Below the pieces are notes generated by a model, which did not search any database, was not told the DNA's origin, and saw nothing but the letters and a program-made list of their open reading frames with translations. Source: an uncultured Candidatus Saccharibacteria bacterium (GTDB lineage: Bacteria > Patescibacteriota > Minisyncoccia > UBA6257 > 2-01-FULL-56-20). From it: 64,000 nucleotides of DNA. Every line of letters starts with the position of its first letter. The first letter of the stretch is position 1. Shown here one piece after another: positions 15,573 through 55,644 of the stretch. The position numbers and the translations under genes are program-made. The DNA is taken from the NCBI GenBank assembly GCA_964442965.1, contig CAYUBE010000001.1, positions 3,301-67,300 of the forward strand, written 5' to 3'.

Positions 15573-15811
15573 TTGAAGATGGTAGCAAAACCAAGATTAA
15601 ATTTTTCTAAAGGAAAAATTTTCTTTGGATCACTCGCACACAATAGGCAAAAATTTTATTTTGCCTATTGTTCTGCTCATTACCAAAGATTAAAAAATCT
15701 TAAAAAGATTTTTTTAATTCGCTCGCAAAAAATGACTCCGTCACGGCAGGGTCATTTTTCTGCTCACTTCTGAAGGTAAAAAATCCTGAAGGAAACGTCC
15801 TTCAAAATCAT

Positions 15812-24978: not shown

Positions 24979-25737
24979 TCACGCCCTCGCTGCCGTAAGG
25001 CCGATGATCTTTCGTGCCCCAGCGGCCTTCAGGACGCGTGCCGCTTCTCCGAGTGTCGCGCCGGATGTCGTGACGTCGTCAAGGACGATGACGTCTTTAT
25101 GGCGGACTTCTTCCGGCTTTATGACAGAAAAACACCCGAGGATATTTTGCCGTCGCTCGGTGGCGCTGGTTGTCTCGGTTTGCGGCTTAGTATTTTTGCT
25201 TCGTACCAGAATATCGTTTCTCACTTTGCGGGGCGTGTGTTCGGCGAGGCAGCGTGCGATTTCCTCTGCCTGGTTGAATCCGCGCTGGTTTAGCCGTTTG
25301 CGGGAAAGCGGCAGGGGAATGAGAATAAATTCGCCGGGATCTATTTCGATGTTGCCGAGATAAAGGGCGAGCAGATTTGCGAGTGGTTTCGCCGCGCCCT
25401 TCACGCTGCGGAATTTCAGATGATGGATTAAGAGTTTGAGCGTAGGGTCATCATAAGGACCTGCGGAACCCAAAAGGTAATCGGTGTTACGGTGGCAAAT
25501 TTTTTTGGCTCCGGAATTTTTTCCGGGCAGGCGGGCGCCGCATCGCGCACAAAAAAGCGTTGTATAACGGGGGATCCCGTCAAAACAGGTTTGGCATAAG
25601 ACTCCTTCAATAATTGAGATATCGCATGCAAGACATCGCGGCGGGAAGACGATTTTTAAGATGAAATCAATGCATTTCATGGTATAATAGGGAAACAAGT
25701 TTCTTTTATACATGGACAATCCTTTCAATTTTTTCAA
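24979..25737 (-). CDS. comF: ComF family protein (competence; phosphoribosyltransferase domain)
   Basis: N-terminal CxxC..CxxC zinc finger, PRTase motif VIVLDDVTTSGATL; 5' end may start at a downstream Met to avoid overlap with pilM. Confidence 0.8.
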   Translation of the reverse strand: MKKLKGLSMYKRNLFPYYTMKCIDFILKIVFPPRCLACDISIIEGVLCQTCFDGIPRYTTLFCARCGARLPGKNSGAKKICHRNTDYLLGSAGPYDDPTLKLLIHHLKFRSVKGAAKPLANLLALYLGNIEIDPGEFILIPLPLSRKRLNQRGFNQAEEIARCLAEHTPRKVRNDILVRSKNTKPQTETTSATERRQNILGCFSVIKPEEVRHKDVIVLDDVTTSGATLGEAARVLKAAGARKIIGLTAARA

Positions 25738-26797
25738 GAGGAAAGTTTTTCCTTCTTATCTTGGCGTCGACATCGGCACGACCTCGATCAAGGTTGCCGA
25801 AGTCAGGAATGGCGACGAACAGCCGGAGGTCGTGAATTACGGCATTCTCGAATCAAGCGGATACTTGGCCCGCGAGAACCAGGCGCTTCAAACGAGCAGC
25901 CTCAAAATATTCGAGTCGGAGATCATCGAACTTCTGAAAACGGTCGTCCGCGAAATGGGGACTTCGGCGAAAGATGTTGTCGCCTCGCTGCCGCTCTTCT
26001 CGGCGTTCATTTCGGTACTCGACTTTCCGAGAATGGAGGCGCGGGAGATTGAACATGCGATCGTGTACCAGGCCAAGCAGTATGTGCCCCTGCCGCTTTC
26101 CGAGGTTGCGCTCGACTGGCTGAAGGTTGCCGAATATGAAGATGAAAAAGGATTTTTTCATCAGAAGATACTCCTGATCTCAGTACCGCAGGCGCAGATC
26201 AAGAAATACCAGGCGATGTTTCTCTCGGCTGGCCTCACGTTGCGCGCGCTTGAAATCGAAAGTTTGAGCCTGGCGCGCATTTTGGGGAGTGATCCGACAT
26301 CGACTATGGTCGTCGATATCGGCAGCCGATCGACCAATGCTATTTTTTTGGAAAAAGGAAGCTTGATGTGGGCGACCCAGAGCGATTACGGCGGGGCATC
26401 TCTTACGCAGGCATTGGCGTCAAGCCTCAACATCAATCCGCTTCGCGCCGAAGAGCTCAAGAAGGAGCGGGGGATTCTCGGCACCGGTCCGAGCTATGAA
26501 TTATCCACCATCATGCTTCCTTTTCTTGATGTTATACTGAACGAAGTGAAGAAGGCACAGTTCCTTTACGGCGAGCAGTTCCCGTCCGCGCGCAAGCCGG
26601 AACGGATCATTCTTGCGGGCGGCGGTGCGAATTTGCTCGGCGTCGAGCCCTATGTCGAACGGGCGCTCGGCCTCCCGGTCGTGCGGATCGCCCCCTTTTC
26701 GCGTTTCCGCTTTCCGCCAGCCATGGAGCCGCTCGTCGGTGAACTGAATGCCGTGATGCCGATCGCACTCGGCCTAGGGATAAAAGAGTTCTTATAG
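25712..26797 (+). CDS. pilM: type IV pilus assembly protein PilM
   Basis: actin-like ATPase fold start YLGVDIGTTSIKVAEV. Confidence 0.85.
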   Translation: MDNPFNFFKRKVFPSYLGVDIGTTSIKVAEVRNGDEQPEVVNYGILESSGYLARENQALQTSSLKIFESEIIELLKTVVREMGTSAKDVVASLPLFSAFISVLDFPRMEAREIEHAIVYQAKQYVPLPLSEVALDWLKVAEYEDEKGFFHQKILLISVPQAQIKKYQAMFLSAGLTLRALEIESLSLARILGSDPTSTMVVDIGSRSTNAIFLEKGSLMWATQSDYGGASLTQALASSLNINPLRAEELKKERGILGTGPSYELSTIMLPFLDVILNEVKKAQFLYGEQFPSARKPERIILAGGGANLLGVEPYVERALGLPVVRIAPFSRFRFPPAMEPLVGELNAVMPIALGLGIKEFL

Positions 26798-26873
26798 AAA
26801 GCTACTGGTTGAAAGTTATAAAGTAAAAGTTTGTTTCATTATTTTTTAATCTCCGTTTTATTCACTTTCAACT

Positions 26874-27566
26874 TTGCGCTTTTCACCTTATACTTATCTT
26901 ATGGCACTTCCCCAGCAAGTTGTTGAACAATTAAATCAGGGGTCCAGCCGGACGCCGGGCTGGTCGTCGGGCATCTTGCTTTTTTCAGGAAGTATTTTCT
27001 TTATCGTTCTCCTTACGTACGCCGGCCTGCGATTTGGTTATGAGCCGTATCTGAACGCCCAGCTGTCGTCGCTGGAGGGTCAGGCGCAGAAGGTGGGACA
27101 GTCGGTTTCTCCATCGGACGAGGCGAATCTCCTCACGTTCTATTCGCAGATAACCAACATTCAATCACTGATCAAGAATCATGTTTTCTTTTCGCAGTTT
27201 TTGACATGGCTCGAACGGGTTACCGAGGCGAACGTTTATTATACGAACCTGTCGTTCACGTCCGGCGACCAGGTGACGTTGTCCGGTGTGGCGAAGACAT
27301 CTGCGGACGTCTCGGAACAGGTCGCCGCTTTTGAGGCGGCACCCGAGGTCTCGTCAGTGACGCTTTCGAGTGTCGCTCTCGGATCTTCCCTGAATGCATG
27401 GAATTTTAATGTCGTGCTGACCATGCAGCCGTCCGTTTTTCTGTGGACGCCAGGCACGGCGGCGGCGGGGGCTGTGTCTCCGCCAAAATCTGTTGCGGCG
27501 CCCGCAATCACAGCTCCGGCTATTCCCACTGTCGCACCGGGACCAGTGAGTACTACCACGCCATGA
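26874..27566 (+). CDS. PilN-like pilus assembly protein
   Basis: single N-proximal TM helix then periplasmic domain, positioned after pilM. Confidence 0.55.
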   Translation: MRFSPYTYLMALPQQVVEQLNQGSSRTPGWSSGILLFSGSIFFIVLLTYAGLRFGYEPYLNAQLSSLEGQAQKVGQSVSPSDEANLLTFYSQITNIQSLIKNHVFFSQFLTWLERVTEANVYYTNLSFTSGDQVTLSGVAKTSADVSEQVAAFEAAPEVSSVTLSSVALGSSLNAWNFNVVLTMQPSVFLWTPGTAAAGAVSPPKSVAAPAITAPAIPTVAPGPVSTTTP

Positions 27567-28177
27567 AACAAAGCTCAAAACGGATCGCAAGCGTTCTTCT
27601 GGCCTTTCTTTTTATTCTCGCAGCCTTTGTTTTCTTTTTCGATCTTTTGCGGCCGGCATACAGTGACGCGAAGGCTTTGCAAAGCCAGCAGCTTGGCGAG
27701 GCAACGTATCTTAAAAATCAGACCACGCTCGTAGGGCAGGTACAGGCTACCCTCAATACCTATCAGAACGAGGCGCAGGAAGCGGCGAATGTGGGCCTTG
27801 CCATGCCGTCAGGCGAGGACATCGCCGGCGCGCTTGCCCAGATTCAGGGGATTGCGGCGAACAACAATATTTCCATAAACAACATTTCCGTAACGCCCCC
27901 CGAGATCCAGATTCAGACAACTGCCGGCACCGCGGATGCGTCTTCTTCGGATCTTCTAAAACCCCTCGGCAGTTTCACCTTCAAGCTTGCGGCGTCGGGG
28001 AGTTATGAAAGTTTCCAGAATTTTCTCTCGGAACTGGAGACCAACATCAGGATATTTGACGTGAAAACCGTTTCGATTCAGCCCGCCGTTGCTGTGGCGG
28101 CCGGCGCGAAATCCGTACCCTCACCCGACGCCTTCAATTACGCGGTAACGGTTGCAACGTATTACCAAACGCAATAA
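27563..28177 (+). CDS. PilO-like pilus assembly protein (start at MKQSSKR; ATGA overlap with pilN)
   Basis: TM helix + coiled-coil/periplasmic domain; gene order pilM-N-O. Confidence 0.5.
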   Translation: MKQSSKRIASVLLAFLFILAAFVFFFDLLRPAYSDAKALQSQQLGEATYLKNQTTLVGQVQATLNTYQNEAQEAANVGLAMPSGEDIAGALAQIQGIAANNNISINNISVTPPEIQIQTTAGTADASSSDLLKPLGSFTFKLAASGSYESFQNFLSELETNIRIFDVKTVSIQPAVAVAAGAKSVPSPDAFNYAVTVATYYQTQ

Positions 28178-28481
28178 ATTCATGGCTATCATCGTTGAAG
28201 AAGAAAAAAAGAGCAATAACATCCTTGCACTCCTGGGGTGGGTCGTCGTACTTGCGATCATTGTGGCGGCCGTTTATTACGTCTTTTTTGTCGAACCTCC
28301 CTCGGCCATTATTCTGCCAACGGGAAATTTGCAGAGCGTCGGTTCTCTTCCTGCGACGGCGGTAAGTCCGCAGGACGTGGTGAATAATGAAGAGTTTCAG
28401 GCGCTCCAGCAATATGTTGCGGAGCCGACGTCAACGGGCCCGGTTTCCGTGGGACGCCAGAATCCGTTCATCGCGCCATAA
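28152..28481 (+). CDS. small membrane protein (possible pilus-associated PilP-like)
   Basis: 109 aa, one TM helix, follows pilO. Confidence 0.35.
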   Translation: MQRITKRNKFMAIIVEEEKKSNNILALLGWVVVLAIIVAAVYYVFFVEPPSAIILPTGNLQSVGSLPATAVSPQDVVNNEEFQALQQYVAEPTSTGPVSVGRQNPFIAP

Positions 28482-28559
28482 AAGTGAATCAGGATTTATG
28501 AACCAAGATTCAAGAGCAAATCATTCCTGAGTCTTGGTTCATGATTCCTGAATCTATTT

Positions 28560-29054
28560 TTGACTATGATAATTTCGCTCATCGCAGCAGCGGGGGACGG
28601 CAATAATGCCATCGGTTTCGAGGGGAAGATTCCATGGCATCTGCCGGCCGATTTTAGGCACTTCAAGGAACTTACGCTTGGCCATCCGGTCATCATGGGA
28701 CAGAAAACGTTTGAGTCCATCGGAAAGCCGCTTCCCGACAGGAAGAATATCGTCATCACGAACAATGCCGAGTATCGCGCCGAAGGCTGCCTAGTGGCGC
28801 ATTCACTTGAAGAAGCGCTTGCGGCGACGAAGGACGCAGATGAGGTTTTTGTCATTGGCGGCGGACAGATATATCACCTTGCGTTACCTGAAGCCCGAAA
28901 AATATATCTTACTAGAGTACATGGAACATTCAACGGAGACACGTTTTTCCCGGCTATCGATGAGAACGAATGGCGCCTCGTGAGCTCCGAACCGCACTTC
29001 AAGGACGAAAAGAATCCGTTCGACTACACGTTTTGCGTCTACGAAAGAAAATAG
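28560..29054 (+). CDS. folA: dihydrofolate reductase
   Basis: MIISLIAA..NAIG..G.IPWHLPADFRHFKELTLGHPVIMGQKTFESIG. Confidence 0.9.
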   Translation: MTMIISLIAAAGDGNNAIGFEGKIPWHLPADFRHFKELTLGHPVIMGQKTFESIGKPLPDRKNIVITNNAEYRAEGCLVAHSLEEALAATKDADEVFVIGGGQIYHLALPEARKIYLTRVHGTFNGDTFFPAIDENEWRLVSSEPHFKDEKNPFDYTFCVYERK

Positions 29055-29096
29055 AATTTTAGAAACTTTTCATCTCCCGCTTGATAGCATGTTTCC

Positions 29097-29642
29097 ATGC
29101 GGGAGAATAATTACGCGTTTATTGATAGCCAGAACGTGAACCTTGGCATTCGCGCGCTCGGGTGGCAATTGGATTTCAGAAAATTCAGGACTTACTTAGA
29201 GGATAAATATAGCGTCACGAAGGCGTATCTTTTTATCGGCTATATTCCCCAAAATGAGCGAATGTATACCGCGCTCCGAAGTTTTGGTTATGTGTTGGTC
29301 TTCAAGCCGACATTAAAAAATGAGCGAGGAATTATAAAAGGGAATTGCGATGGCGAGCTTATTCTACAGGCGATGATTGATTATCCGAATTATGAAAAGG
29401 CCGTCATTGTGACAGGGGATGGCGATTTTTACTGTCTTGCAAGATACCTTTGGCAGTATCATAAGCTATCAAAGATACTCATTCCCGACAAAGATCGTTA
29501 TTCTTCGCTTCTTAAAGATTTTAGTATTCCGGAAAACAATATGCTCGATTTCATGAATTCTCTTAAAAATAAATTAGAATATCTTTCAAATGAAAAAGGC
29601 TCTCGTCGGGACGAAACCCTTAGAGAACCTTTCTCGTCGTGA
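29097..29642 (+). CDS. NYN-domain (LabA-like) putative ribonuclease
   Basis: AFIDSQNVNLGIR..KAYLFIGY...VIVTGDGDF NYN pattern. Confidence 0.75.
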   Translation: MRENNYAFIDSQNVNLGIRALGWQLDFRKFRTYLEDKYSVTKAYLFIGYIPQNERMYTALRSFGYVLVFKPTLKNERGIIKGNCDGELILQAMIDYPNYEKAVIVTGDGDFYCLARYLWQYHKLSKILIPDKDRYSSLLKDFSIPENNMLDFMNSLKNKLEYLSNEKGSRRDETLREPFSS

Positions 29643-29721
29643 TTGCCTTTATGGTAGACGAACTGATGCGGTTCGTCAAATTGCGTTTAATGATTTTTTA
29701 ATGCCTGAGCATTGGGAATCG

Positions 29722-29746
29722 GTCATTCCGAGCTTTGCGAGGAATC
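29722..29746 (+). repeat. repeat family variant GTCATTCCGAGCTTTGCGAGGAATC
   Basis: 24/25 identical to 38596-38620. Confidence 0.55.
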
Positions 29747-29875
29747 TTTTCTTTGTTCTTATGGGGCTAATTCGCACGAATTGGTCCCATAAGGAATTTT
29801 TGGATGGCAAAACACAGAATTTGACAGAATCCAATAGTTTGTTCTATATTTATCTCCAGTAAGCCATCATTTTAA

Positions 29876-30553
29876 GTGATGGTATTTAAAAAATATAAAC
29901 AGAAAGGAACCGCCATGAAAAAGAATCATGGAACCGCCTTGCTCCACGTTGATGGGGCGTACGTAGAATTTCAGCAGGCAGTAATTCGCGCACTGCCGAG
30001 AGATATCCCTTGTGATATTGCTCTGGGATGGCAAAGAAACGGGGAAGGACTCACAAAAGTTCTTCGCGAAGCTTTGCTTCCGCCAGCAGAAGAGGATTTC
30101 CTCCGCGAAACCGGAGAACTTTCAATTCAAATTCCGGCCTTGAAGCGACCAACACTAAAGCAGCTTCAGGAAAAATGGTCTTGGATAGAGTCCATCGAAC
30201 GGGATAATTCGACCGAAGAATCGGTAACACTTAATCTGGCAACGGTTCTCCGCGTTGACGAAAAAAATTTAATCAACAACAAAGAATATGAACGTCGCCT
30301 TTCCCCAAATATCTCCCGGCTACTCGGTTGCCAGCATTTTGAATGGTTAGTTAGTCATCAGGATGAATATCCCGTCTTCATGAATTTACTCGGAAAAATC
30401 TATATCGACTTTCCAGGGCTTGTCGCGCTGGGCAAGGATGGCTTCCGTGGCGTCCCGTATAGCAATCAGAATGGCGAGCGTTGGGGCGCGAGCTGGCGCT
30501 GGCTTAGCGGTAACTTCCATCAGAACGGGCGTGTTGCCGTGTCCAGCAAATAA
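29876..30553 (+). CDS. hypothetical protein
   Basis: 225-aa ORF, no recognised domain. Confidence 0.4.
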
Positions 30554-37330: not shown

Positions 37331-38578
37331 CTATTCGTACCGCAGTGCTTCGATAGGACTCTTTTTGCCGGCTTGGCGCGCAGGGTAGATGCCGAACGCG
37401 ACGCCGCAGGCGGTTGAAACGAAAACTGCGATGATGACAGCCGATAACGGGAACTCGAATGTCCAGCCGCCGGCAATAACGTGCGAGAGAACAAGCCATG
37501 CGAGCGAGACGAATGCGGCCCCGAGTGCGATGCCGATCACGCCGCCGAGGAAAGTGAGCATGACCGATTCGATGAGAAATTGCTGGAGGATATCGCGGTC
37601 GGTCGCGCCGACGGCTTTTCTGAGGCCGATCTCGCGCGTCCGTTCAATGACCGAAACAAGCATGATGTTCATGATGCCGATGCCGCCGACGATGAGCGAG
37701 ATCGAAGCGATGGCGGCAAGGAAGAGCGTCATGACGGAGGTGATGCTGCCGAGGAGCGACAGGATATCCTGCTGGGTCTCGATCGTAAAATCATCTTTGT
37801 TGGAATTCGTGATACCGTGATCGTGTTCAAGGACAGATTGAATGCGCGATTTCACGAAGGAGATGTCGTACGCGGGATTCGCCGAAGCAAAGATATAGTT
37901 GAAATAGGTGATGCCGAGCATCTGGCTCTGGGCGACGGTGATCGGAACAATGGCGAGGTCGTCCTGATTTACGCCGCCCGGGCCAGTGCCTTTCGGTGAT
38001 AGAACGCCGACCACATGGAAGGTTGTATTTTTCAGGCGGATATCTTTGCCGACTGGATTGATATTTGGCCCAAAGAGAGTGGTCGCAAGATCGGAGCCGA
38101 TGACCACGACATGGTTATAGGCGGCGACATCGGCGTCGCTGAAAGGATAACCGTTTGCCACGGTAAAGTTTCGCACCGGAAAAAAGTTTGCAGTTGTGCC
38201 TTGATAGGTCACCGTGAGATCGTTGTCGCCGTACACCGCATCCGCTTGGCCGCCAACGAGCGGCACCACGGCTGAAATGGATGGTTCACGCGAGAGCGCA
38301 TCGACATCCTGCTGAACCAGGCTCGTGATCACGATGCCTTGCGATTGCGCAGGGGATTGGAATCGGCCGTTGTTGGTTCCTCCTGGGATGATGAAGATGA
38401 GGTTCGAGCCGATGCCCTGGACCTGGCCTAAGATATAATCCTGCGCCGATTGGCCGATCGACATCAGAATGATAACGGACGCGATGCCGATCACAATGCC
38501 AAGCATGGTTAAGGCCGATCGCATCTTGCCGTGATGCAGGCTGTCGAGTGCCGAGTTGAATGAATCCTTGATGCGCAT
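37331..38578 (-). CDS. ABC transporter permease, FtsX/MacB-like
   Basis: MacB periplasmic domain + 4 TM FtsX-like domain. Confidence 0.85.
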   Translation of the reverse strand: MRIKDSFNSALDSLHHGKMRSALTMLGIVIGIASVIILMSIGQSAQDYILGQVQGIGSNLIFIIPGGTNNGRFQSPAQSQGIVITSLVQQDVDALSREPSISAVVPLVGGQADAVYGDNDLTVTYQGTTANFFPVRNFTVANGYPFSDADVAAYNHVVVIGSDLATTLFGPNINPVGKDIRLKNTTFHVVGVLSPKGTGPGGVNQDDLAIVPITVAQSQMLGITYFNYIFASANPAYDISFVKSRIQSVLEHDHGITNSNKDDFTIETQQDILSLLGSITSVMTLFLAAIASISLIVGGIGIMNIMLVSVIERTREIGLRKAVGATDRDILQQFLIESVMLTFLGGVIGIALGAAFVSLAWLVLSHVIAGGWTFEFPLSAVIIAVFVSTACGVAFGIYPARQAGKKSPIEALRYE

Positions 38579-43085: not shown

Positions 43086-43291
43086 CGGACGATCTAAAAG
43101 TTCCAATCCCGCACAGTCGACCTGTTACCAAGTTTGGTAACCTCACTTAATCTCCAAAAGATTAATAAAATAGCACCTCGTCTCCTTGCAGAAATTATTT
43201 TCGAGCAGTGGAGCACTGAGCGGAGTGAACGCCTGCAAAAAGAAATGGAGACGAAAAGGGGGCAACAGCAGGGTAAAATCGCAAAGAAATG

Positions 43292-43316
43292 AAAATCCGC
43301 ATGATGCGGATTTTTT
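43292..43316 (+). terminator. intrinsic terminator AAAATCCGCATGATGCGGATTTTTT
   Basis: perfect hairpin + T-run. Confidence 0.6.
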
Positions 43317-43475
43317 GTCAGAGATCTTACGGAATCCGTTGTAGGTATGCACATTACCCGAATATATCGACGAATTCTATTTTCTATGTTAAAACGGAAT
43401 CGAGCAAAGTGCTCAACTAGCGGAATGTTAGTTCTTTGAAAATTTAAAGCTACGGAATGTAGTAGGAGATTTTAG

Positions 43476-44474
43476 ATGAAAGTTACTTCAGACAAAAACA
43501 GCAAATTGCTTGCTCAGTACCCCTTTTTGTACTCGATGTTTCATCTTACGATGGAACCGCTTCACGGCAATGACGATGATGATTGCGCCATCGACGATCT
43601 TTCTATCCACGTCGAAACAGCAGACGGCACCTTAATGTTCCGAAGAGCCGAAAATGTTGGACTCAGGGAAAATAGTTGTATCTTCTTTCTTGACGGGAAA
43701 CGTAAAGGGCAGGTAATGAAACAGGGAGAATATCTCTTCGCTGTTGACGCAAACGGTAAAATCCTGAACCGTCTCGATTGGCCGAGAAACGAACATGACC
43801 GGCGGAATCAAAAAGGTGAGGTATATGGCTACCATGTCTTTTGGAAGTCCAGATATCAAAGCCATTTTGAAGAACCACTGTTTGATGAGACAAAATACCT
43901 TGTATGGATCAAGATACAATGCTGGCATAAGGATTCCAAAGATGATTCTGCCCCTCCTTATAGATTCGGAGAATTCAAGGATCGTTTGGTAGATATAACC
44001 ATTTACCAGAAACCAGAAGGGGGGTTTGATAAACTTAAGCAAGACTCTAATTTCGCTGAACATCTTTATCTCGATGAAAAGCTGATTATAAGAGCAGCGC
44101 TTGAGAGAAACATTGATATTCTCATATTAGAAAGTAGACTTACTGAGTTATGTCGGTTGTTCCAAGATGATGTTTATCAGAATGGAATGAAAGAAATTCT
44201 GGACCAAGGGAATGTTCGTGGAGCCTCAGGTAGGTTCGGTAATGTAGAAGTCCTCTGTGCTGAAATGTGCGGGTACGATCGGGTTGTGCTTGAAGACAAA
44301 AACTGTTGGATCAGTTTTCAGCTCCGTCCAGGATCATCAAATCTCTATGTGTTAGGAATGGGAGGCACCCTTCCTCAACTCAGGAATGTTATAAAAACGG
44401 TTGTGAAGGTGTGGAGTAGCGATCCTAAAAGCCGCTCCGAATTCAAACCGAATAAAGAACTATCGGTTCTGTAA
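43476..44474 (+). CDS. hypothetical protein, AT-rich island gene 1
   Basis: 332-aa ORF, lower GC than flanks, no recognised domain. Confidence 0.5.
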   Translation: MKVTSDKNSKLLAQYPFLYSMFHLTMEPLHGNDDDDCAIDDLSIHVETADGTLMFRRAENVGLRENSCIFFLDGKRKGQVMKQGEYLFAVDANGKILNRLDWPRNEHDRRNQKGEVYGYHVFWKSRYQSHFEEPLFDETKYLVWIKIQCWHKDSKDDSAPPYRFGEFKDRLVDITIYQKPEGGFDKLKQDSNFAEHLYLDEKLIIRAALERNIDILILESRLTELCRLFQDDVYQNGMKEILDQGNVRGASGRFGNVEVLCAEMCGYDRVVLEDKNCWISFQLRPGSSNLYVLGMGGTLPQLRNVIKTVVKVWSSDPKSRSEFKPNKELSVL

Positions 44475-44494
44475 GATATAGGATTCATAAAACT

Positions 44495-44528
44495 GGGCTT
44501 CGCAAATTCTGCGGAGCCCAAATTTTTT
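44495..44528 (+). terminator. intrinsic terminator GGGCTTCGCAAATTCTGCGGAGCCC + T-run
   Basis: hairpin followed by AAATTTTTT. Confidence 0.55.
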
Positions 44529-44653
44529 ATAACCAAGGCAGGAAGTACGGGCCTAGCCGGTCAGGAAAAGGTTCCGTAATGAAAAAGTGCCTTCGATTTA
44601 TTGAGGGCACTGTTTTTTTGGTTTTATTTCATATACGCTTCTCTCTCGCTTGC

Positions 44654-44679
44654 ATTCCCTTATGGCTTCCTCCAATTTT
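44654..44679 (+). repeat. island repeat R1 (partial: ATTCCCTTATGGCTTCCTCCAATTTT)
   Basis: 26-nt identity to start of R2. Confidence 0.5.
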
Positions 44680-44762
44680 GGAAATTTACTATCCCGAGTC
44701 GGGCTCGCTCCATAATCAGCCTTGTATTTTGAGTACATCATAAAGCAATCTGGCCCAAAGTA

Positions 44763-44779
44763 TGGTATAATGAGACATG
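44763..44779 (+). promoter_or_regulatory. extended -10 promoter TGGTATAAT with ATG 6 nt downstream (leaderless)
   Basis: TATAAT 44766-44771; ATG 44777. Confidence 0.4.
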
Positions 44780-45061
44780 GAAACCTTGGAGAAAAAATCG
44801 TTATTCTGGGATGTTCAAGCTTTGAATCCCGAGAAAGAAAAGAATTTTATCATTACGCGTATCTTGAATTTCGGCGATACGGATGACTTTGCATGGGCCA
44901 TGCAATTCTACGGCCGTGATAAGGTCGAAGAGGTTCTGCAGAAGAGCACGCAATTGGACAAGAAATCGTTTTCTTTTTGGTGTCGGTTTTTCACTATTGA
45001 TCCATCAACATGCATCGAGAAGCAATCAACGAATCAACCGAGCGCGTTCTCGCAAAGATAG
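44777..45061 (+). CDS. hypothetical small protein (possible cognate partner/antitoxin of downstream NTase)
   Basis: 94 aa, overlaps downstream NTase gene start by 52 nt in another frame. Confidence 0.35.
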   Translation: METLEKKSLFWDVQALNPEKEKNFIITRILNFGDTDDFAWAMQFYGRDKVEEVLQKSTQLDKKSFSFWCRFFTIDPSTCIEKQSTNQPSAFSQR

Positions 45062-45624
45062 CCGGTCACGTCAAGGACGATTTTTATCTTGCGGGTGGCA
45101 CGGCGCTCGCGATCCAGTTGGGCCATCGGTTGTCCATAGACTTGGATTGGTTTTCGGCAAAAGATTTTCCGCGCACGGCTCTCCGGGAGACGCTTTCCGC
45201 GGTGGGGCGTTTTGAGTTGACCGGAGAAGAAGAGGGGACGATGCACGGCCTCCTGGATGACGTGCGCATCAGTTTTTTACGGTATGCGTATCCATTACTT
45301 TTCCCGTTAGTTGCCTTTGAGGGTGTGGAGCTTGCTGATGAGCGCGATATCGCCGCCATGAAGCTCGACGCGGTATCCTCACGGGGCAGCAAGAAGGATT
45401 TCATCGATATTTATTTCCTGCTCAAAAAATATTCCTTGCCGGAGCTCTTAGAAATATTTGAAAAGAAGTATGCTGGTATAAAGTTCAATCGGCTCCATAT
45501 CCTCAAGAGTTTGTCATATTTTGAAAATGCGGAGGATGAGCCGATGCCGATTATGCTCGAGCCTGTTATATGGGAGGACGTTAAAAGAAAGATCGTTGCG
45601 GAAGCCGATCAGATTTTGAGGTAG
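45010..45624 (+). CDS. AbiEii/AbiGii-family nucleotidyltransferase (type IV TA toxin-like)
   Basis: FYLAGGTALAIQLGHRLSIDLDWF motif (GGTAL ... R.S.DiD) characteristic of AbiEii NTases. Confidence 0.6.
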   Translation: MHREAINESTERVLAKIAGHVKDDFYLAGGTALAIQLGHRLSIDLDWFSAKDFPRTALRETLSAVGRFELTGEEEGTMHGLLDDVRISFLRYAYPLLFPLVAFEGVELADERDIAAMKLDAVSSRGSKKDFIDIYFLLKKYSLPELLEIFEKKYAGIKFNRLHILKSLSYFENAEDEPMPIMLEPVIWEDVKRKIVAEADQILR

Positions 45625-45709
45625 TATTTTCCCTTGATGATCGATTTCGTCACAGACTAGAAATGCGTGGTCATTGACGCAGCTCCTTTCCATTGATCTT
45701 CTGCTTAGT

Positions 45710-45772
45710 ATTCCCTTATGGCTTCCTCCAATTTTCTTAAATCTTCTTTGAATTGGTTCCAAATGACACACG
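45710..45772 (+). repeat. island repeat R2 (ATTCCCTTATGGCTTCCTCCAATTTTCTTAAATCTTCTTTGAATTGGTTCCAAATGACACACG)
   Basis: ~80% identical to R3; contains CCAATT...AATTGG inverted repeat. Confidence 0.55.
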
Positions 45773-45925
45773 CATAGTGCACTGTGCACTGTACGGGATT
45801 TTGACTGCTAAAATCCTGAATCAGCTCGAATACACAACCTAATTTTGTGGTTTCAAATCCTTGGCTTCGAATCAGGTGAATACATGCTCGCGAGTGGTTG
45901 TTTTATCTTTTTGACGTGATATCCT

Positions 45926-46642
45926 TTGAATATGAAAATGGAAGGGTTCGGCGGTCCTATCGGTAGGAAATATGCAGAAATAGACCTCGCTGGCCGAAAG
46001 GCATTGAGTGAGGGGGAAATACAGAAATTTGAGGGCTTTCCTGAAAATCTCAAAAAACGTTTCAATGTTTCGGCGCGATTCACTTCTGATTCAGAAAAAG
46101 AATTTGCCGAGCGCGTGGTGCGACCCGTTAAAGATATCGCGGCACAGTTAGGCATTGATTTTATTGTTGCAGGCGAAGATTTCCCTCTTCACAGCACTAT
46201 GCTAGAGGGGCTTTATCAGGGTGCCGATGAAGCGGAGCGCCAAACATTATTTTCTGATTTAAAAGATAACATTTCTTTTCAGGAGCGACTCAATGCCCTC
46301 AATGGTCTCGAAGTTCCCTACAAATATCTCCTTATGGACAGGGGAAATATAATTCTCAATTCGGTTGAGATTCCTTATAGCATTCTTGAAATTCGAGAGT
46401 TCCTTACGAAATATTATGCGGAGCAAAAACTGAAACCCCTTGCGATGGACAATATCCTCCATATTAGTGCCGCACGCATGATCAAATTACCGGAAGAAGA
46501 ACGGGAAAAATCTTTTACCGAGTACAAAGGACGCATGGTCGAACTGAGGCATTCGATCTCTTCGACGCCGTTGTCCCTCAAGATGGACCATTTCTATTCA
46601 GGGTCAACACTTCAACTGTTAAAAAGCTCCTCGGAGAGTTGA
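45926..46642 (+). CDS. 2H phosphoesterase superfamily protein (LigT-like)
   Basis: two H-x-T/S-x motifs (PLHSTML and ILHISAA) ~95 aa apart; 238 aa. Confidence 0.5.
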   Translation: MNMKMEGFGGPIGRKYAEIDLAGRKALSEGEIQKFEGFPENLKKRFNVSARFTSDSEKEFAERVVRPVKDIAAQLGIDFIVAGEDFPLHSTMLEGLYQGADEAERQTLFSDLKDNISFQERLNALNGLEVPYKYLLMDRGNIILNSVEIPYSILEIREFLTKYYAEQKLKPLAMDNILHISAARMIKLPEEEREKSFTEYKGRMVELRHSISSTPLSLKMDHFYSGSTLQLLKSSSES

Positions 46643-46861
46643 GCTTTTTGGCATCGCATCAACATCGCTGCATGCATCCCCGTGCGGGATGCCCGGAGTT
46701 TTGGCGCCTTGATCGGATCAGCGCACTGCTCGTTTTCATGTTATGGCATCCTCGATTCGAATCTTCGTCGAGATACTTATGTGCGGTTGTAAAGTCAGAC
46801 TCCCTTGAGAGTCAGTGGTGGACGCGAGACCTCATAAGACTGATCGTTTACACCGTTTTAC

Positions 46862-46924
46862 ATTCCTTTATAGCTTCCTCAGATTTCTTGAGATCTCCTT
46901 TGAATTGGTTCCAGCCGACACACG
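46862..46924 (+). repeat. island repeat R3
   Basis: ATTCCTTTATAGCTTCCTCAGATTTCTTGAGATCTCCTTTGAATTGGTTCCAGCCGACACACG vs R2. Confidence 0.55.
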
Positions 46925-47040
46925 TCCGCCGCATTATTCTTTTCATAAGCGGAAGGTTTCATCTTGGACAATCTGAGCGGAGGTGAGACATCTCTTTTAA
47001 TAAGCGGAGGGTTTCTTTTCTGAAAGATTATTATCTCTGG

Positions 47041-47103
47041 CAAAAAGGATGTCCGTCCTGCGGGACCGTGAGTTGAAGCCCCGTAGGATGGACGTCCTTT
47101 TTG
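47041..47103. terminator. long imperfect inverted repeat AAAAAGGATGTCCGTCCTGCGGG ... CCCGTAGGATGGACGTCCTTTTT (bidirectional terminator-like)
   Basis: ~22-bp arms with G-U wobbles, A-run/T-run flanks. Confidence 0.5.
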
Positions 47104-47198
47104 CGTCTCCATCTTCTGGAAAACGGGAAAACCGGAGCCCTTGCGTTATTTTTTGGTATAGTGTACAATATATGCATAAAAATAAATCATCTTAATCA

Positions 47199-51355: not shown

Positions 51356-52090
51356 ATGCGGTTTCATATTGTTACGATCTTTCCCGAAATGTTCGATTCG
51401 TATCTCCGAGAATCGCTTTTTAAGCGTGCGGAAAAGAATAAGATCGTTGCGGTGCGTACGTATAACCTCCGTGATTTTACGAACGACAAGCGTCGTAAGG
51501 TAGATGATCGTCCGTTCGGCGGCGGGCCGGGAATGGTGTTGCAGATCAAACCGGTGTTTGACGCCGTGAGGTTCATTAAGAAAAAAGAAGCAAGAAAAAA
51601 GAAGCAAGGGAGGGTGCGAGTGATTCTATTTTCGACGCGCGGGAAGAAATTAAATGCGAAAGAAGCGAAACGATTAGCGAAATATAACGATCTTATTCTG
51701 ATCTGCGGCCGTTATGAAGGCGTCGATGAACGCGTGGCAAAATACGTGGCCGACGAGGAAATTTCGATCGGGGATTACATTCTCTCCGGCGGCGAATTGC
51801 CGGCGTTGGTGCTCATGGAATCCGTCAGCCGATTTCTGCCTGGATTTTTAGGAAAGGAAGAATCGCTCGAAGAAGTGAACGGTTCGTTTCCGACCTACAC
51901 CCGCCCCGAAGTTTTTCATCCATCATCCTCGTCTCGTTCTCCCTTGTCGTTCCGGCCTCGTGTCCGGGCACGGGGTAAACTCCAGCCGGAACCCAGACAT
52001 AAAAAGGCCTGGCTTGTTCCTAAAGTTCTCCTGTCCGGCGACCACAAAAAAATCGCTGAATGGCGAAAAGCAGAATCAAAACCAAGCTAG
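51356..52090 (+). CDS. trmD: tRNA (guanine37-N1)-methyltransferase
   Basis: MRFHIVTIFPEMF..., SPOUT knot motifs. Confidence 0.9.
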   Translation: MRFHIVTIFPEMFDSYLRESLFKRAEKNKIVAVRTYNLRDFTNDKRRKVDDRPFGGGPGMVLQIKPVFDAVRFIKKKEARKKKQGRVRVILFSTRGKKLNAKEAKRLAKYNDLILICGRYEGVDERVAKYVADEEISIGDYILSGGELPALVLMESVSRFLPGFLGKEESLEEVNGSFPTYTRPEVFHPSSSSRSPLSFRPRVRARGKLQPEPRHKKAWLVPKVLLSGDHKKIAEWRKAESKPS

Positions 52091-52607
52091 AGCTAATTTG
52101 AATCTTGCCAATATCAGAATCGTTCGGACATCGTTGCATACACCCCCGTGCCAGGAAAGCATTTGAGATAATAAAATGGACCATCGTGGTGATGGTCCCG
52201 CTTAGAAGCATTAAATTTCTGGTCTAGTGATGCGGAGCACATGCAATCACTATTATTATCGTCAAGATTCCGCCCGCAATGGAGCCTAGGACGATACACC
52301 AGCCCTCAATACTAGATAAGAGCTCGTCCTTTGCGAAAAGGAAAAGCTCTTCAAATATTTTTGGGTCGATTGCTTCTCGAAAGAATTCTTTGACTTCTTC
52401 TTTCATTTGGAAATTCTCCTTTTTATTCTGTTAAAAAGAATACTACTTTAATTTAACAATGTCGAATTTCCGAAGTAGTCGGTTTCTATTTGCCATCAAA
52501 ATCCTGTAAATATCGTCCGCCCCGTGTAGGATCTTTGGCTTGAGTCGCCTTTTACCTGTCATTTTGCTATGATGCTCATATAGATATTTGAGGAAATTAT
52601 TTTTATA

Positions 52608-53468
52608 ATGGATTTTGAAAAGGAACAATTCTCAGCGACTCCGGAAAGGGTGGGCTCCGACCCAAGAGAACAGGAAAATGATTACATTCCTGAATCGGAG
52701 GAGGAACAGCGTTCGGCGGAGACTATCTGGGCCGATCTCTATGATACAGAGCTTGAGCCGTGCAAAGAATTTCTTAAGAGCAGGGTGCTGATCGATAGGG
52801 TCCTCGCGTATGCGAGGACGGCCGCTGAGAGCGGTGCGGGAGGGAGTACGTGGAGCGCGACTGATGCATTCTGCGCCCTTTCCGCTCTTCATTCCTTGGA
52901 TCTTCCGTTGACCACGGAAGAAGAAAACAAGATGAATGCCTTTCTCGAAAACCGGGCTCTCATTGAACACGCATTCACGTACGTAAAAACGAGCGCAAAG
53001 AAAGAGGGTCTGAGCGCCGCAAAAACGCTCTGGACGCTCTCTGCGTTCCGTTCCCTGAATGTTCAATGTACTCCAGCAGAAGAAGAAAAGATAAAATCCT
53101 TTTTTGAAAATTCCGTTTTGGTTGATCACGCGCTTGCTTATGCGAGAAGCGAGGCTGCACGAGGCATTGAAGGAGATTCAAAACACGCCGCGAGCGCGTT
53201 CGAGACCTTGTCAGCCCTTCATTCTCTGAAGGTGTCGTTAGCTCCCGAACAGGAAGACAAGACCACTGCTCTTCTGGTGAATCCCGATCTTATCAACAAG
53301 GCATTTGCATTCGCAAAGAATAGCGCCAAGGAGGGTGCGAGGGGACATATCGCGGATGCCGTGGGGGCATTTGAATCGCTCGCCTCTCTCACTGCTGTCA
53401 GGGATTATCTTCGCGGAAAAGGAGCGGCGCTTGACGAGCGAGCTTCCTCTGACAAGGCCACTTCGTGA
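52608..53468 (+). CDS. hypothetical protein with four ~45-aa tandem repeats
   Basis: repeat unit ...A.A..G.......A..AF..LSALHSL.(V/L).L..E.E.K...F. Confidence 0.5.
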   Translation: MDFEKEQFSATPERVGSDPREQENDYIPESEEEQRSAETIWADLYDTELEPCKEFLKSRVLIDRVLAYARTAAESGAGGSTWSATDAFCALSALHSLDLPLTTEEENKMNAFLENRALIEHAFTYVKTSAKKEGLSAAKTLWTLSAFRSLNVQCTPAEEEKIKSFFENSVLVDHALAYARSEAARGIEGDSKHAASAFETLSALHSLKVSLAPEQEDKTTALLVNPDLINKAFAFAKNSAKEGARGHIADAVGAFESLASLTAVRDYLRGKGAALDERASSDKATS

Positions 53469-54168: not shown

Positions 54169-55644
54169 ATGCTGAGCGGCATGGCAGATTTTTTTATAGG
54201 GGATGTAGCTTTCGCGGCAGCGCTCGGTTTTCTCGCGGGAATTTTCGCCGCGGACCTTGGATGGAATTTTGCGGCATTCTCCGTCGGTGTTATTTTAATT
54301 TTCCCGATATTGAAATATGGCGCATCACTAGCGGCACGAATGGCTGCGGTCTTCGCGGCGATCATGCTTCTCGCATCCTTTGCAGGAATTTATTATTTTC
54401 ATTTTTTCCTGAATTGGCGCGCGGCTGGCACACGGTTGCCGGATGGAAAATCTTCTTTTCAGGCAACGGTTGACGACGAACCTATTGCTTCGGAAAAATA
54501 TCTTTCGTTTTCCGCGAAGCTCCAGCCGCCGTTTTCCGGAAATATTTCCGTATTCGCATCGCCTGACAGCAACGTTCAGTATGGCGATCTCGTGAATATT
54601 TCGGGAACGGTTGAACCGCCCCGCGATGCGGGCGAAACATCGGCAGTATTCCCTAAAAATATCACGATTATTTCCCGCAACAACGGTTTTTGGTTAACAG
54701 AGGAATTACTGCATTTCAAAGTGGCGGTCAACGAAAAATTCGACGCGTTCTTATCGCAGGACGCCGCGGCGCTCCTTGGTAGCCTGACGCTCGGCGGAAC
54801 AACCGGCATGAGCGGGGAATTGAAGAACGAAATGACCGTCTCGGAAACGCTTTACGTTACCTCAATGTACGGCTATAAAATGGCAATGATCGTCATGGCT
54901 CTTGAGGCGGTTTTGGCGGGTTTTATTGCGCGTCGCATCAGATTCGGCATTGAGATTTTTGTAACCGTATTTTTTCTGCTGATGTCGGGCGGCAGTATTT
55001 CCGCGCTCCGCGGCGGCGTGATGGCGTGCGCGCTGATATTTGCCAAAGAAACGGGGCGGATTTTTTCCAAGCGAAATACGCTCGCGCTCACTGCCGTGGG
55101 CATTGCTTTGTTTGATCCGATGGCCATCGTGCAGGCTGGATTTTTGTTTTCCTTTGCGAGCGTCGCCGGCATGGCGCTCCTTGCTAAACCGATTCGAAAG
55201 TTTCTGCGGCTCGGGGAAGGAAAGGGGATGTTGGCGTGGAGAGATGCCGTTGTTCTGAGCTTGGCGTCGCTTCTGCCGATTATTCCGCTCGTGAGCGCGA
55301 TGTTTGGATCGTTCTCGATGACGGCGGTTTTCGCGAACGTTCTGATCGCGCCCGCGATCCCGCTCGGCATGATCGCAGGAACTGCGCTCGCAGCGGCAGG
55401 TTTTCTTTCGCCGTACCTCGGATTTTTTGTCGCCCGCATGGCGGGCGTGGTGCTGGGCTATACATCCTGGGTGATTGGATTTTTCGCGATTCACCCGCTT
55501 CCCTTGCCTTTTTCGTTTTCTAACACACCGTCATTTTTAGTCTATTATGCTGTTCTCGTTCTTTTTGCGCATATCTATCGCACACCGGCAAAACTTCACT
55601 CAGGGATGCGCGCGGGATCCCATAAAAAAACAACAGCACCATAA
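54169..55644 (+). CDS. comEC: ComEC/Rec2 competence channel protein (DUF4131 + competence domain)
   Basis: polytopic membrane protein with ComEC-typical TM core; no MBL domain in this ORF. Confidence 0.85.
   Translation: MLSGMADFFIGDVAFAAALGFLAGIFAADLGWNFAAFSVGVILIFPILKYGASLAARMAAVFAAIMLLASFAGIYYFHFFLNWRAAGTRLPDGKSSFQATVDDEPIASEKYLSFSAKLQPPFSGNISVFASPDSNVQYGDLVNISGTVEPPRDAGETSAVFPKNITIISRNNGFWLTEELLHFKVAVNEKFDAFLSQDAAALLGSLTLGGTTGMSGELKNEMTVSETLYVTSMYGYKMAMIVMALEAVLAGFIARRIRFGIEIFVTVFFLLMSGGSISALRGGVMACALIFAKETGRIFSKRNTLALTAVGIALFDPMAIVQAGFLFSFASVAGMALLAKPIRKFLRLGEGKGMLAWRDAVVLSLASLLPIIPLVSAMFGSFSMTAVFANVLIAPAIPLGMIAGTALAAAGFLSPYLGFFVARMAGVVLGYTSWVIGFFAIHPLPLPFSFSNTPSFLVYYAVLVLFAHIYRTPAKLHSGMRAGSHKKTTAP

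What the first reader, a model, noticed from the sequence alone, without database searches (positions are those of the whole stretch)
43090..47198. AT-rich cassette-like accessory island punctuated by a repeated ~63-nt inter-gene element
Between the ABC-2 permease and the sigma-r4 protein gene lie three gene units: an unknown 332-aa protein, a small-ORF plus AbiEii-like NTase pair, and a 2H phosphoesterase. Each unit is followed by a related element, found at 44654-44679 (partial), 45710-45772 and 46862-46924 (~80% identical, both ending ...TTTGAATTGGTTCCA..GACACACG and containing a CCAATT/AATTGG inverted repeat). Strong intrinsic terminators also separate the units. The genes look visibly AT-richer than neighbouring core genes, one has a leaderless extended -10 promoter, and the upstream region has four CGGAAT direct repeats. 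A gene-plus-repeat modular layout suggests cassette acquisition by site-specific recombination, although no integron-type integrase is in the window.
Basis: seen in the sequence. Interest (0 to 1): 0.7.

Follow-up and report, generated by a model that had tools for sequence, protein, structure and literature searches.

The report
Recombinase gene relics between island genes
The repeated ~63-nt "inter-gene element" is real, but it is the best-preserved piece of three decayed tail ends of serine-recombinase-like genes on the opposite strand, which marks this small lineage-specific island in a Paceibacteria (CPR) genome as the remains of integrated mobile elements rather than an integron-like cassette array.

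Summary
Copies at 45710-45772 and 46862-46924 are 81% identical over 63 nt, and 44654-44679 matches the first copy 26/26. No other copy exists in the window.

The ~4 kb between the ABC-2 permease and the sigma-r4/HARE-HTH gene is low in GC. It is absent from every related species examined and 99.97-100% identical in every contig of this population.

The attC-like reading fails. The element forms no hairpin (z about 0), the CCAATT/AATTGG inverted repeat is not conserved in copy C, and there is no integron integrase.

A profile of the minus-strand translation found one protein among 1.84 billion (P0129, E=7e-7), matching its C-terminal tail. Reciprocal tblastn extends copy B to 68 codons (45881-45678, 51% identity, E=1.7e-15), running through an in-frame stop. 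Copies C and A also match.

P0129 aligns colinearly with the region after the zinc ribbon of the window's own large serine recombinase. It also hits the PHROG serine-integrase family.

The repeats are therefore pseudogene relics of recombinase 3' ends, each convergent with a cargo unit: an orphan 332-aa protein, a DUF6922-AbiEii pair, and a 2H-phosphoesterase-fold protein.

This is ordinary island decay, of modest interest as a footprint of serine-recombinase elements in CPR bacteria.

The parts
43086..47137 (.). Lineage-specific low-GC island between the ABC-2 permease gene (stop codon 43083-43085) and the conserved promoter of the sigma-r4/HARE-HTH gene
   Evidence: blastn homology to relatives ends at 43084 and resumes at 47138. 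Empty sites are seen in L008/L009, L010 and L012/L013. GC is 0.42-0.47 against about 0.52.
43329..43459 (+). Cluster of four CGGAAT direct repeats upstream of the 332-aa gene; a possible operator or promoter region
   Evidence: Sequence. Three of nine ACGGAATS matches in the whole window fall within these 130 nt.
43476..44474 (+). Cargo 1: orphan 332-aa protein
   Evidence: No hit in Pfam, NCBIfam, PHROGs or PADLOC. Its 90% cluster contains only this population.
44494..44620 (.). Two intrinsic terminator hairpins (44494-44520 and 44586-44611, each followed by a T run). The second is also followed by a T-rich stretch on the minus strand and overlaps the stop of the relic A reading frame
   Evidence: sequence; ORF 44598-44741 on the minus strand.
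44643..44723 (-). Recombinase 3'-end relic A (KADYGAS...KLEEAIRECKRE).
   Evidence: tblastn of P0129 residues 178-206, 55% identity, E=0.008. Its core is 26/26 identical to copy B.
44763..45624 (+). Cargo 2: extended -10 (TGGTATAAT, 44763-44771), then DUF6922 gene (44777-45061) overlapping the AbiEii nucleotidyltransferase gene (45010-45624); a toxin-antitoxin or abortive-infection type pair
   Evidence: Pfam DUF6922 E=3.4e-15 and AbiEii E=1.1e-13. PADLOC AbiEii. Sequence.
45678..45881 (-). Recombinase 3'-end relic B, 68 codons with an in-frame stop (REY*AEDQWKGAA against RECKREDQYISAA). A minus-strand terminator-like hairpin lies at 45681-45664
   Evidence: tblastn of P0129 residues 148-213, 51% identity, E=1.7e-15. 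Hairpin.
45932..46642 (+). Cargo 3: 236-aa protein with a 2H-phosphoesterase fold (238 aa if read from the TTG at 45926)
46848..46924 (-). Recombinase 3'-end relic C (CVGWNQFKGDLKKSEEAIKECKTV*), cut off on its 5' side next to the core spacer.
   Evidence: tblastn of P0129 residues 184-204, 67% identity, E=1.4e-5. Similarity to the L012 spacer starts at about 46936.
46936..47198 (+). Native spacer upstream of the sigma-like gene: duplicated 23-nt motif (46938 and 46993), long hairpin 47040-47104, and the conserved promoter block from 47138
3472..5181 (-). Intact large serine recombinase, 38 kb from the island. It served as the reference for classifying P0129. Its tail sequence differs, so it is not the source of the relics
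   Evidence: Pfam Resolvase E=1.7e-17 plus Zn_ribbon_recom. PHROG 95 integrase E=1.7e-47. Translation.

Best explanation
The repeated element has no demonstrated function of its own. It is the most conserved stretch of three pseudogene fragments: the last roughly 25-68 codons of serine-recombinase-like genes encoded on the minus strand. Each fragment lies tail-to-tail with a plus-strand cargo unit.

Inferred history. One to three small integrative elements of the form 'cargo gene(s) convergent with a large serine recombinase gene' entered the spacer between the ABC-2 permease and sigma-like genes of this Paceibacteria lineage. They either arrived in tandem or nested into one another. Deletions then removed the catalytic 5' parts of the recombinase genes and any recognisable att sites. 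Only the 3' ends next to the convergent cargo terminators survived.

Why the edges look as they do. The sharp left edge of the repeat is the natural end of the gene. The right edges differ because the deletion end points differ.

What the island does today is whatever its cargo does: an orphan protein, a DUF6922-AbiEii toxin-antitoxin-like pair, and a 2H phosphoesterase.

Shown: the repeat, the insertion relative to related species, the coding-relic homology, and the recombinase affinity of P0129. Inferred: the number and order of integration and deletion events.
For: (1) A profile of the minus-frame peptides of copies B and C, searched against 1.84 billion representative proteins, gave exactly one hit. 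P0129 matched at E=7e-7 over its residues 185-204 of 213.

(2) In the reciprocal tblastn the similarity extends well beyond the 63 nt used as query. Copy B aligns to P0129 148-213 (45881-45678, 51% identity over 68 aa, E=1.7e-15), including the FELIQ.F block upstream and EDQ..AA downstream of an in-frame stop. Copy C aligns at E=1.4e-5 and copy A at E=0.008 (alignment).

(3) P0129 residues 3-184 align colinearly with residues 355-538 of the window's large serine recombinase, directly after its zinc ribbon (BLASTP E=8e-5). P0129 also hits PHROG 95 'integrase' at profile positions 420-509 (E=1.1e-4). The intact recombinase hits the same family at E=1.7e-47.

(4) Each relic shares different residues with P0129. 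A has KAD.G and ECKRE; B has QGF.T..G..FELIQ.F and EDQ..AA; C has ECK. A and B also have their own distinct 3' flanks with minus-strand hairpins. This fits separate gene copies better than recent copying of a short fragment.

(5) The island is an insertion. It is absent from L008-L013, L015, L016, L018 and L019. Its GC and GC3 are lower than those of the flanking genes.

(6) The element has no structure (z between -0.6 and +0.55) and no Rfam hit. No other copies were found.
Against: No fragment of the catalytic resolvase domain and no att sites were found in the island. That the ancestral genes were full-length recombinases therefore rests on P0129.

The link from P0129 to serine recombinases is itself moderate: E about 1e-4 in two independent comparisons, no Pfam hit and no PDB hit.

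P0129 is itself a 213-aa ORF that starts just after the zinc-ribbon position. Its genomic context could not be fetched.

Three independent deletions that each leave only a 3' end are not parsimonious.

The perfect 26-nt identity between A and B, next to strongly diverged flanks, is not explained by simple decay. Gene conversion or selection could be involved.

Synonymous differences between B and C are uninformative: 3, 4 and 5 of 12 in the three open frames (my own reading of the sequence).
Confidence: 0.72

Rival explanations
1. The three relics descend from one recombinase 3' fragment that was duplicated locally, for example together with successive insertions into or next to it. On this view they are not the remains of three separate recombinase genes.
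For: All copies lie within 2.3 kb, in the same orientation, and are spaced 1056 and 1152 nt apart. A and B share a perfect 26-nt stretch. No copy exists elsewhere. This history needs fewer recombinase genes and fewer deletions.
Against: Outside the core the flanks are unrelated. A, B and C each keep different P0129-like residues, so none can be a copy of the present form of another. A and B have different 3' flanks, each with its own hairpin. An early duplication followed by independent decay remains possible.
Confidence: 0.18
2. The element is a recombination site, either attC-like or the identity core of attL/attR. Promoter-bearing cassettes would then be captured or exchanged at it by a recombinase encoded elsewhere.
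For: Each unit ends with a copy, and the last copy abuts the native spacer. Unit 2 is bracketed by a perfect 26-nt direct repeat. The island is an insertion. A large serine recombinase exists elsewhere in the window.
Against: There is no stable hairpin and the inverted repeat is not conserved between B and C (sequence). No copy sits at the left border or in the relatives' spacers. No integron or tyrosine integrase was found among the ORFs scanned. No other copies appear in large collections. The similarity is explained by, and extends as, protein-coding homology on the other strand. From general knowledge, serine-recombinase att sites share only a 2-bp crossover and not 26-63 nt of identity.
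Confidence: 0.05
3. The conserved core is kept by selection because it still does something. It could be a small amphipathic peptide, an antisense RNA or a 3'-UTR element acting on the convergent cargo genes.
For: The minus-frame peptide W-x2-F-x3-L-x2-L-x3-I has a heptad-like pattern (sequence). A and B are identical over 26 nt although their flanks have diverged. A promoter-like site on the minus strand lies at 46962-46933, just upstream of copy C.
Against: There is no conserved start codon, ribosome-binding site or stop. ORF lengths and ends differ (47 aa, about 24 aa and 32 aa), and B runs through a stop relative to P0129. There is no conserved fold and no Rfam match. Promoter-like matches are no more frequent than in shuffled sequence.
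Confidence: 0.05

Closest known systems
Degraded integrative elements or genomic islets carrying integrase pseudogene remnants, including tandem or nested accretion of integrative elements such as the CIME/ICE arrays of streptococci (my own knowledge, not tested here)
   Same: It is a lineage-specific, low-GC insertion at one intergenic hotspot. Accessory and toxin-antitoxin-type cargo is present. Recombinase gene fragments are left as direct repeats between modules. There is no functional recombinase.
   Different: The modules are very small, at 1.0-1.6 kb each. Only the last 25-68 codons of each recombinase remain. No att sites could be recognised. The host is a Paceibacteria (CPR) bacterium, for which three literature searches here returned nothing relevant on such elements.
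Large serine recombinases (phage, ICE and transposon integrases such as phiC31 Int, TnpX and CcrAB)
   Same: The relics match the C-terminal tail of P0129. P0129 aligns with the segment after the zinc ribbon of a bona fide large serine recombinase and with the PHROG 95 integrase family.
   Different: No resolvase, recombinase or zinc-ribbon domain survives in the island. The tail motif WNQF..DL.KLEEAI.ECK is lineage-specific: it gave a single hit in 1.84 billion representatives and is absent from the window's own recombinase.
Integron gene cassettes with attC sites
   Same: It has a gene-plus-repeat modular layout, with a repeat at the 3' side of each unit.
   Different: The repeat has no attC hairpin, no R''/R' cores, no intI/attI/Pc platform and no attC-like sequence diversity. 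The units have their own promoters and terminators. The repeat is coding-derived.
AbiE-type (type IV) toxin-antitoxin or abortive-infection modules
   Same: An AbiEii nucleotidyltransferase gene overlaps a small upstream partner gene.
   Different: The partner is DUF6922 rather than AbiEi. The function has not been tested.

Membership tests
Integron cassette array | attC: an imperfect palindrome that folds as a bulged hairpin on one strand | tested here: not met
   DNA folds of all three copies on both strands give z-scores between -0.6 and +0.55 against shuffles. The CCAATT/AATTGG pair is present only in copy B (sequence).
Integron cassette array | intI tyrosine recombinase with adjacent attI and Pc | tested here: not met
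   No tyrosine recombinase was found among the 40 window ORFs of at least 150 aa scanned outside 33.8-52 kb, nor among the genes annotated for L001, which spans about 33.5-54.5 kb. The rest of the genome was not available.
Integron cassette array | Mostly promoterless cassettes; attC family found at many cassettes | tested here: not met
   The units have their own promoter-like sites and terminators. No further copies were found in the window or in genome, metagenome and viral collections.
Large serine recombinase gene (as source of the relics) | Homology of the fragment to the C-terminal region of a serine recombinase | tested here: met
   The link is indirect, through P0129. Relic to P0129: E=1.7e-15. 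P0129 to the window's recombinase, residues 355-538: E=8e-5. P0129 to PHROG 95 integrase: E=1.1e-4.
Large serine recombinase gene (as source of the relics) | N-terminal resolvase catalytic domain, recombinase domain and zinc ribbon | tested here: not met
   tblastn of the intact 569-aa recombinase against the island gives nothing below E=0.8. The relics are only 3' ends, so the ancestral domain content is inferred.
Large serine recombinase gene (as source of the relics) | Intact reading frame | tested here: not met
   B has an in-frame stop and no start. A and C are 25-30 codon stubs. They are pseudogene fragments.
Integrated mobile element or genomic island | Present/absent polymorphism against an otherwise colinear backbone | tested here: met
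   It is absent in related species with conserved flanks. Within this population it is fixed: 99.97-100% identical in contigs from several samples.
Integrated mobile element or genomic island | Recognisable attL/attR at the borders | tested here: inconclusive
   No repeat copy lies at the left border. Only a palindrome at 43124-43141 and a duplicated 23-nt motif at 46938/46993 are seen near the borders, and their meaning is unknown.
AbiE (type IV TA / Abi) | AbiEii nucleotidyltransferase toxin domain | tested here: met
   Pfam PF08843 at E=1.1e-13, above the cutoff. 13 PADLOC AbiEii models match at E up to 0.1.
AbiE (type IV TA / Abi) | AbiEi antitoxin/regulator partner | tested here: not met
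   The upstream overlapping gene is DUF6922 (E=3.4e-15), not AbiEi.
2H phosphoesterase superfamily (236-aa cargo) | Two H-x-[TS]-x motifs on a duplicated alpha/beta lobe fold | tested here: met

The most novel reading that the evidence does not exclude
The layout could record a serine-recombinase-driven accretion process. Very small single-cargo modules, each carrying a recombinase of one family, would integrate serially into the 3'-terminal part of the previous module's recombinase gene. This would build an array that is functionally analogous to an integron but based on a large serine recombinase. One later deletion would have removed all the displaced 5' halves at once. This nested model needs 3 integrations plus 1 deletion, against 3 plus 3 for simple tandem decay.
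Probability: 0.08. Interest if true: 0.65.

Novelty: new member of a known kind. Interest (0 to 1): 0.3.

Why it matters
Mobile elements and the way accessory genes enter the tiny genomes of CPR/Patescibacteria are poorly documented. This locus gives a concrete footprint. A variable hotspot between two conserved genes has acquired a toxin-antitoxin-type pair, a 2H phosphoesterase and an orphan gene. Each is still tagged by the tail of a serine-recombinase-like gene.

It is also a methodological caution. A short intergenic direct repeat with a cassette-like layout was explained only by translating the opposite strand and running an exhaustive profile search. Exact-word protein search and DNA pattern scans had both found nothing.

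Beyond that, it is ordinary island decay and not a new mechanism.

Tried and rejected
(1) HEPN lead. My first idea, from memory, was that the minus-frame peptide W.QF...L.KLEEAI is the N-terminus of a HEPN/NTase-substrate-binding toxin. There was no Pfam hit, no PDB hit and no plasmid tblastn hit. The only database match is to the C-terminus of a recombinase-like protein. Rejected.

(2) Word-indexed protein search with the concatenated peptides found no candidate.

(3) A degenerate DNA pattern (EEAI...WNQFK back-translated) gave 0 hits in genome contigs and in metagenome contigs. P0129 has WNQFE, so this pattern would have missed it.

(4) The 19-mer scan gave 92 metagenome and 12 viral hits. 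None extends past the 19-mer (at most 21 of 44 further bases). They are chance matches whose reverse complement would read E-E-A-I-[KR]-E.

(5) attC-like or RNA structure: folds are no better than shuffles, and Rfam gave nothing relevant.

(6) A copy at the left border or in the ABC-2 3' end: none.

(7) Homology of the element to the relatives' native spacers: not significant.

(8) Flanks of the 236-aa gene's closest homologue (L124): no shared flank, and homology is limited to the ORF.

(9) Strain-level empty site: every contig carrying the exact ABC-2, AbiEii or 332-aa protein has the identical island.

(10) Codon-substitution test on B against C: uninformative.

(11) P0129 against phages, plasmids and viral contigs: no match.

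(12) Catalytic-domain remnants in the island: none.

(13) Single-sequence AlphaFold of the 236-aa protein was useless (pLDDT 36). The three-sequence alignment gave a usable fold.

(14) Literature searches for integrons or serine recombinases in Patescibacteria and for DUF6922 found nothing relevant.

Full report
**The observation**

The stretches 45710-45772 (copy B) and 46862-46924 (copy C) are 63 nt long and 81% identical without gaps. 44654-44679 (copy A) is identical to the first 26 nt of B.

The shared 19-mer ATTCCYTTATRGCTTCCTC occurs three times in the window against 0.03 expected. The right-hand 27-mer occurs twice against 0.00 expected. No further copy exists in the 64 kb window, at the left border of the island, or in the 3' end of the ABC-2 gene.

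Two details need qualifying. The CCAATT/AATTGG inverted repeat is present in B only. Strong plus-strand terminators are found only after the first unit, at 44494-44530 and 44586-44620.

The gene calls hold:
- The 332-aa protein is an orphan with no hit in four profile libraries.
- The small ORF is DUF6922 and its partner is AbiEii.

The island is lower in GC than its neighbours: GC 0.42-0.50 and GC3 0.42-0.59, against GC 0.51-0.55 and GC3 0.60-0.71.

**Is it an island?**

Sources of the closest sigma-like homologues name them Paceibacterota/Minisyncoccia (CPR), so the window most likely comes from that lineage.

I fetched the genomic context of homologues of the sigma-r4/HARE-HTH protein. At 89%, 86% and 83% identity (L008/L009, L010, L012/L013), the ABC-2 permease gene lies directly upstream of the sigma-like gene, separated by only 135-345 nt. 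Other relatives lack even the ABC pair.

DNA homology to all of them stops at 43084, the ABC-2 stop codon, and resumes at 47138, the conserved promoter block. A weaker match of the L012 spacer begins at about 46936, right after copy C. The roughly 4 kb in between is therefore a lineage-specific insertion.

Within this population the island is fixed. Every contig that carries the exact 332-aa, AbiEii or ABC-2 protein has the same island at 99.97-100% identity, and these contigs come from several samples.

**What the repeat is not**

- None of the copies folds better than shuffled sequence on either strand (z from -0.6 to +0.55).
- Rfam gave no relevant hit.
- No copy or homologue is present in the relatives' spacers.
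- A degenerate pattern found nothing in 185,579 representative genomes or in the JGI metagenome collection.
- The 19-mer gave 92 metagenome and 12 viral hits, none of which continues beyond the 19-mer.
- No tyrosine or integron integrase was found among the 40 window ORFs of at least 150 aa scanned outside 33.8-52 kb, nor among the genes annotated for L001, which spans about 33.5-54.5 kb.

The attC-like reading is therefore not supported.

**What the repeat is**

On the minus strand one frame reads:
- B: CVIWNQFKEDLRKLEEAIREY*
- C: CVGWNQFKGDLKKSEEAIKECKTV*
- A...KLEEAIRECKRE...

My first lead was a HEPN toxin N-terminus. It found no support.

I then searched a two-sequence profile of the B and C peptides exhaustively against 1.84 billion representative proteins. 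It returned exactly one protein, P0129 (213 aa), at E=7e-7. The match is to the protein's C-terminal tail...GGISWNQFEEDLRKLEEAIRECKREDQYISAA.

The reciprocal tblastn is the key result:
- In the B region the similarity extends far beyond the 63-nt core. Window 45881-45678 aligns with P0129 148-213 at 51% identity over 68 residues (E=1.7e-15).
- This alignment includes IRSQGFETTKLGCVFELIQDF against VRNQGFGTARIGYIFELIQSF upstream of the core.
- Downstream it continues through an in-frame stop: REY*AEDQWKGAA against RECKREDQYISAA.
- Copy C matches P0129 184-204 (67% identity, E=1.4e-5).
- Copy A matches P0129 178-206 (KADYGAS...KLEEAIRECKRE, E=0.008).

The element is thus the best-preserved core of three pseudogene fragments of the 3' end of a P0129-like gene. 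The sharp common left edge of the repeat is simply the natural end of that gene. The different right edges are different truncation points.

**What P0129 is**

P0129 has no Pfam hit and no PDB hit. Two independent comparisons nevertheless place it:
- Its residues 3-184 align colinearly with residues 355-538 of the window's own large serine recombinase (3472-5181, minus strand; Resolvase plus Zn_ribbon_recom). The aligned segment begins directly after the zinc ribbon (E=8e-5).
- It hits PHROG 95 'integrase' at profile positions 420-509 (E=1.1e-4). The intact recombinase hits the same family at E=1.7e-47.

I therefore read P0129 as the C-terminal part of a large serine recombinase, and the three relics as tails of genes of that family.

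The window's intact recombinase has a different tail, so it is not the source of the relics. No catalytic-domain remnant survives in the island.

**History (inferred)**

Each relic lies tail-to-tail with a plus-strand cargo unit. A and B are each followed, on the minus strand, by their own hairpin. This explains the 'double terminator' after unit 1.

Each relic also keeps different P0129-like residues. None is therefore a recent copy of the present form of another.

The simplest reading is that small 'cargo plus serine recombinase' elements of one family accumulated at this spacer and then lost the recombinase bodies and att sites by deletion. Only the 3' ends next to the convergent cargo terminators remained.

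Two variants stay open:
- Local duplication of a single early relic.
- A nested-integration model in which one deletion removed all the displaced 5' halves at once.

The perfect 26-nt identity of A and B amid diverged flanks is not explained. Gene conversion is possible.

The 236-aa gene illustrates that the cargo is mobile at single-gene resolution. Its closest homologue (78% amino-acid identity) sits in a glycan-biosynthesis cluster in another metagenome. Nucleotide homology there covers only the ORF, 45931-46635.

**Verdict**

This is a new example of a known kind of thing, namely a decayed integrative-element islet. It is of modest interest because such footprints are rarely described in CPR bacteria.

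Confidence by claim:
- The repeat is a coding relic of a P0129-like gene: about 0.9.
- That gene family is a large serine recombinase: about 0.75.
- There were three separate elements rather than one duplicated relic: about 0.45.

Noticed in passing
window 3365-3408 and 15752-15795; 3472-5181 (-): An intact 569-aa large serine recombinase lies convergent with an SDR gene (2438-3187). A 44-nt inverted repeat (82% complementary) sits just downstream of its stop and again 12.3 kb away. Together these bracket the recombinase, a MerR-domain gene, RelA/SpoT, TopA and DprA. This could be an invertible segment or a coincidence.
   Followed up: no
window about 20694, 39408, 60542, 61914 (variant at 29722 and 38596): There is a family of REP-like or terminator hairpins, GTCATTCCGGCGAAAGCCGGAATGAC, in both orientations at gene ends.
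   Followed up: no
window 174, 22093, 22107, 24958, 28532, 57284, 62763: Seven copies of a 24-nt intergenic motif rich in TGAATC/TGATTC are present, some forming inverted pairs (28480-28560). A related TCCTGAATCAG occurs just right of relic B at about 45815.
   Followed up: no
window 46938-46960 and 46993-47015; L012 7714-7729: The 23-nt motif TCTTTTMATAAGCGGARGGTTTC is duplicated 55 nt apart at the right junction of the island. It is single-copy in the empty-site spacer of relatives L012/L013. It might be related to the integration site.
   Followed up: partly
window 43124-43141: A perfect palindrome, GTTACCAA-GT-TTGGTAAC, lies 39 nt after the ABC-2 stop at the left edge of the island and has no T run after it. 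A bidirectional terminator follows at 43292-43316.
   Followed up: no
L124 3073-3783 (JGI 3300035696): The closest homologue of the 2H-fold cargo protein (78% amino-acid, 77% nucleotide identity) sits between Methyltransf_21 and WavE genes in a glycosyltransferase cluster that also contains RuBisCO. The family has only three members in 5.8 billion proteins.
   Followed up: partly
P0129 / P0130 (JGI contigs of 1.2 and 12.6 kb): The only database relative of the relics is itself a 213-aa ORF that starts right after the position of the recombinase zinc ribbon. It is thus probably another 5'-truncated serine recombinase in a different metagenome.
   Followed up: partly
window 37331-38578 (-) versus L001/L133: The MacB-like permease gene is intact (415 aa) in the window and in L135. 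It is called as two ORFs (153 + 258 aa) in contig k141_1641509, which differs by one base in this 1.5 kb. This is probably a premature stop segregating in the population.
   Followed up: partly
window 29000-30000, 52000-53000, 59000-60000: Other low-GC patches (0.40-0.45) are present. One contains a NYN-domain gene (29097-29642) and others contain ORFs without family hits. They may be further accessory islets.
   Followed up: no
window 14535-15572, 25712-28177, 54169-55644: DprA, PilM/N/O and ComEC genes are present, so the organism appears equipped for natural transformation. This is relevant to how foreign DNA might enter.
   Followed up: no
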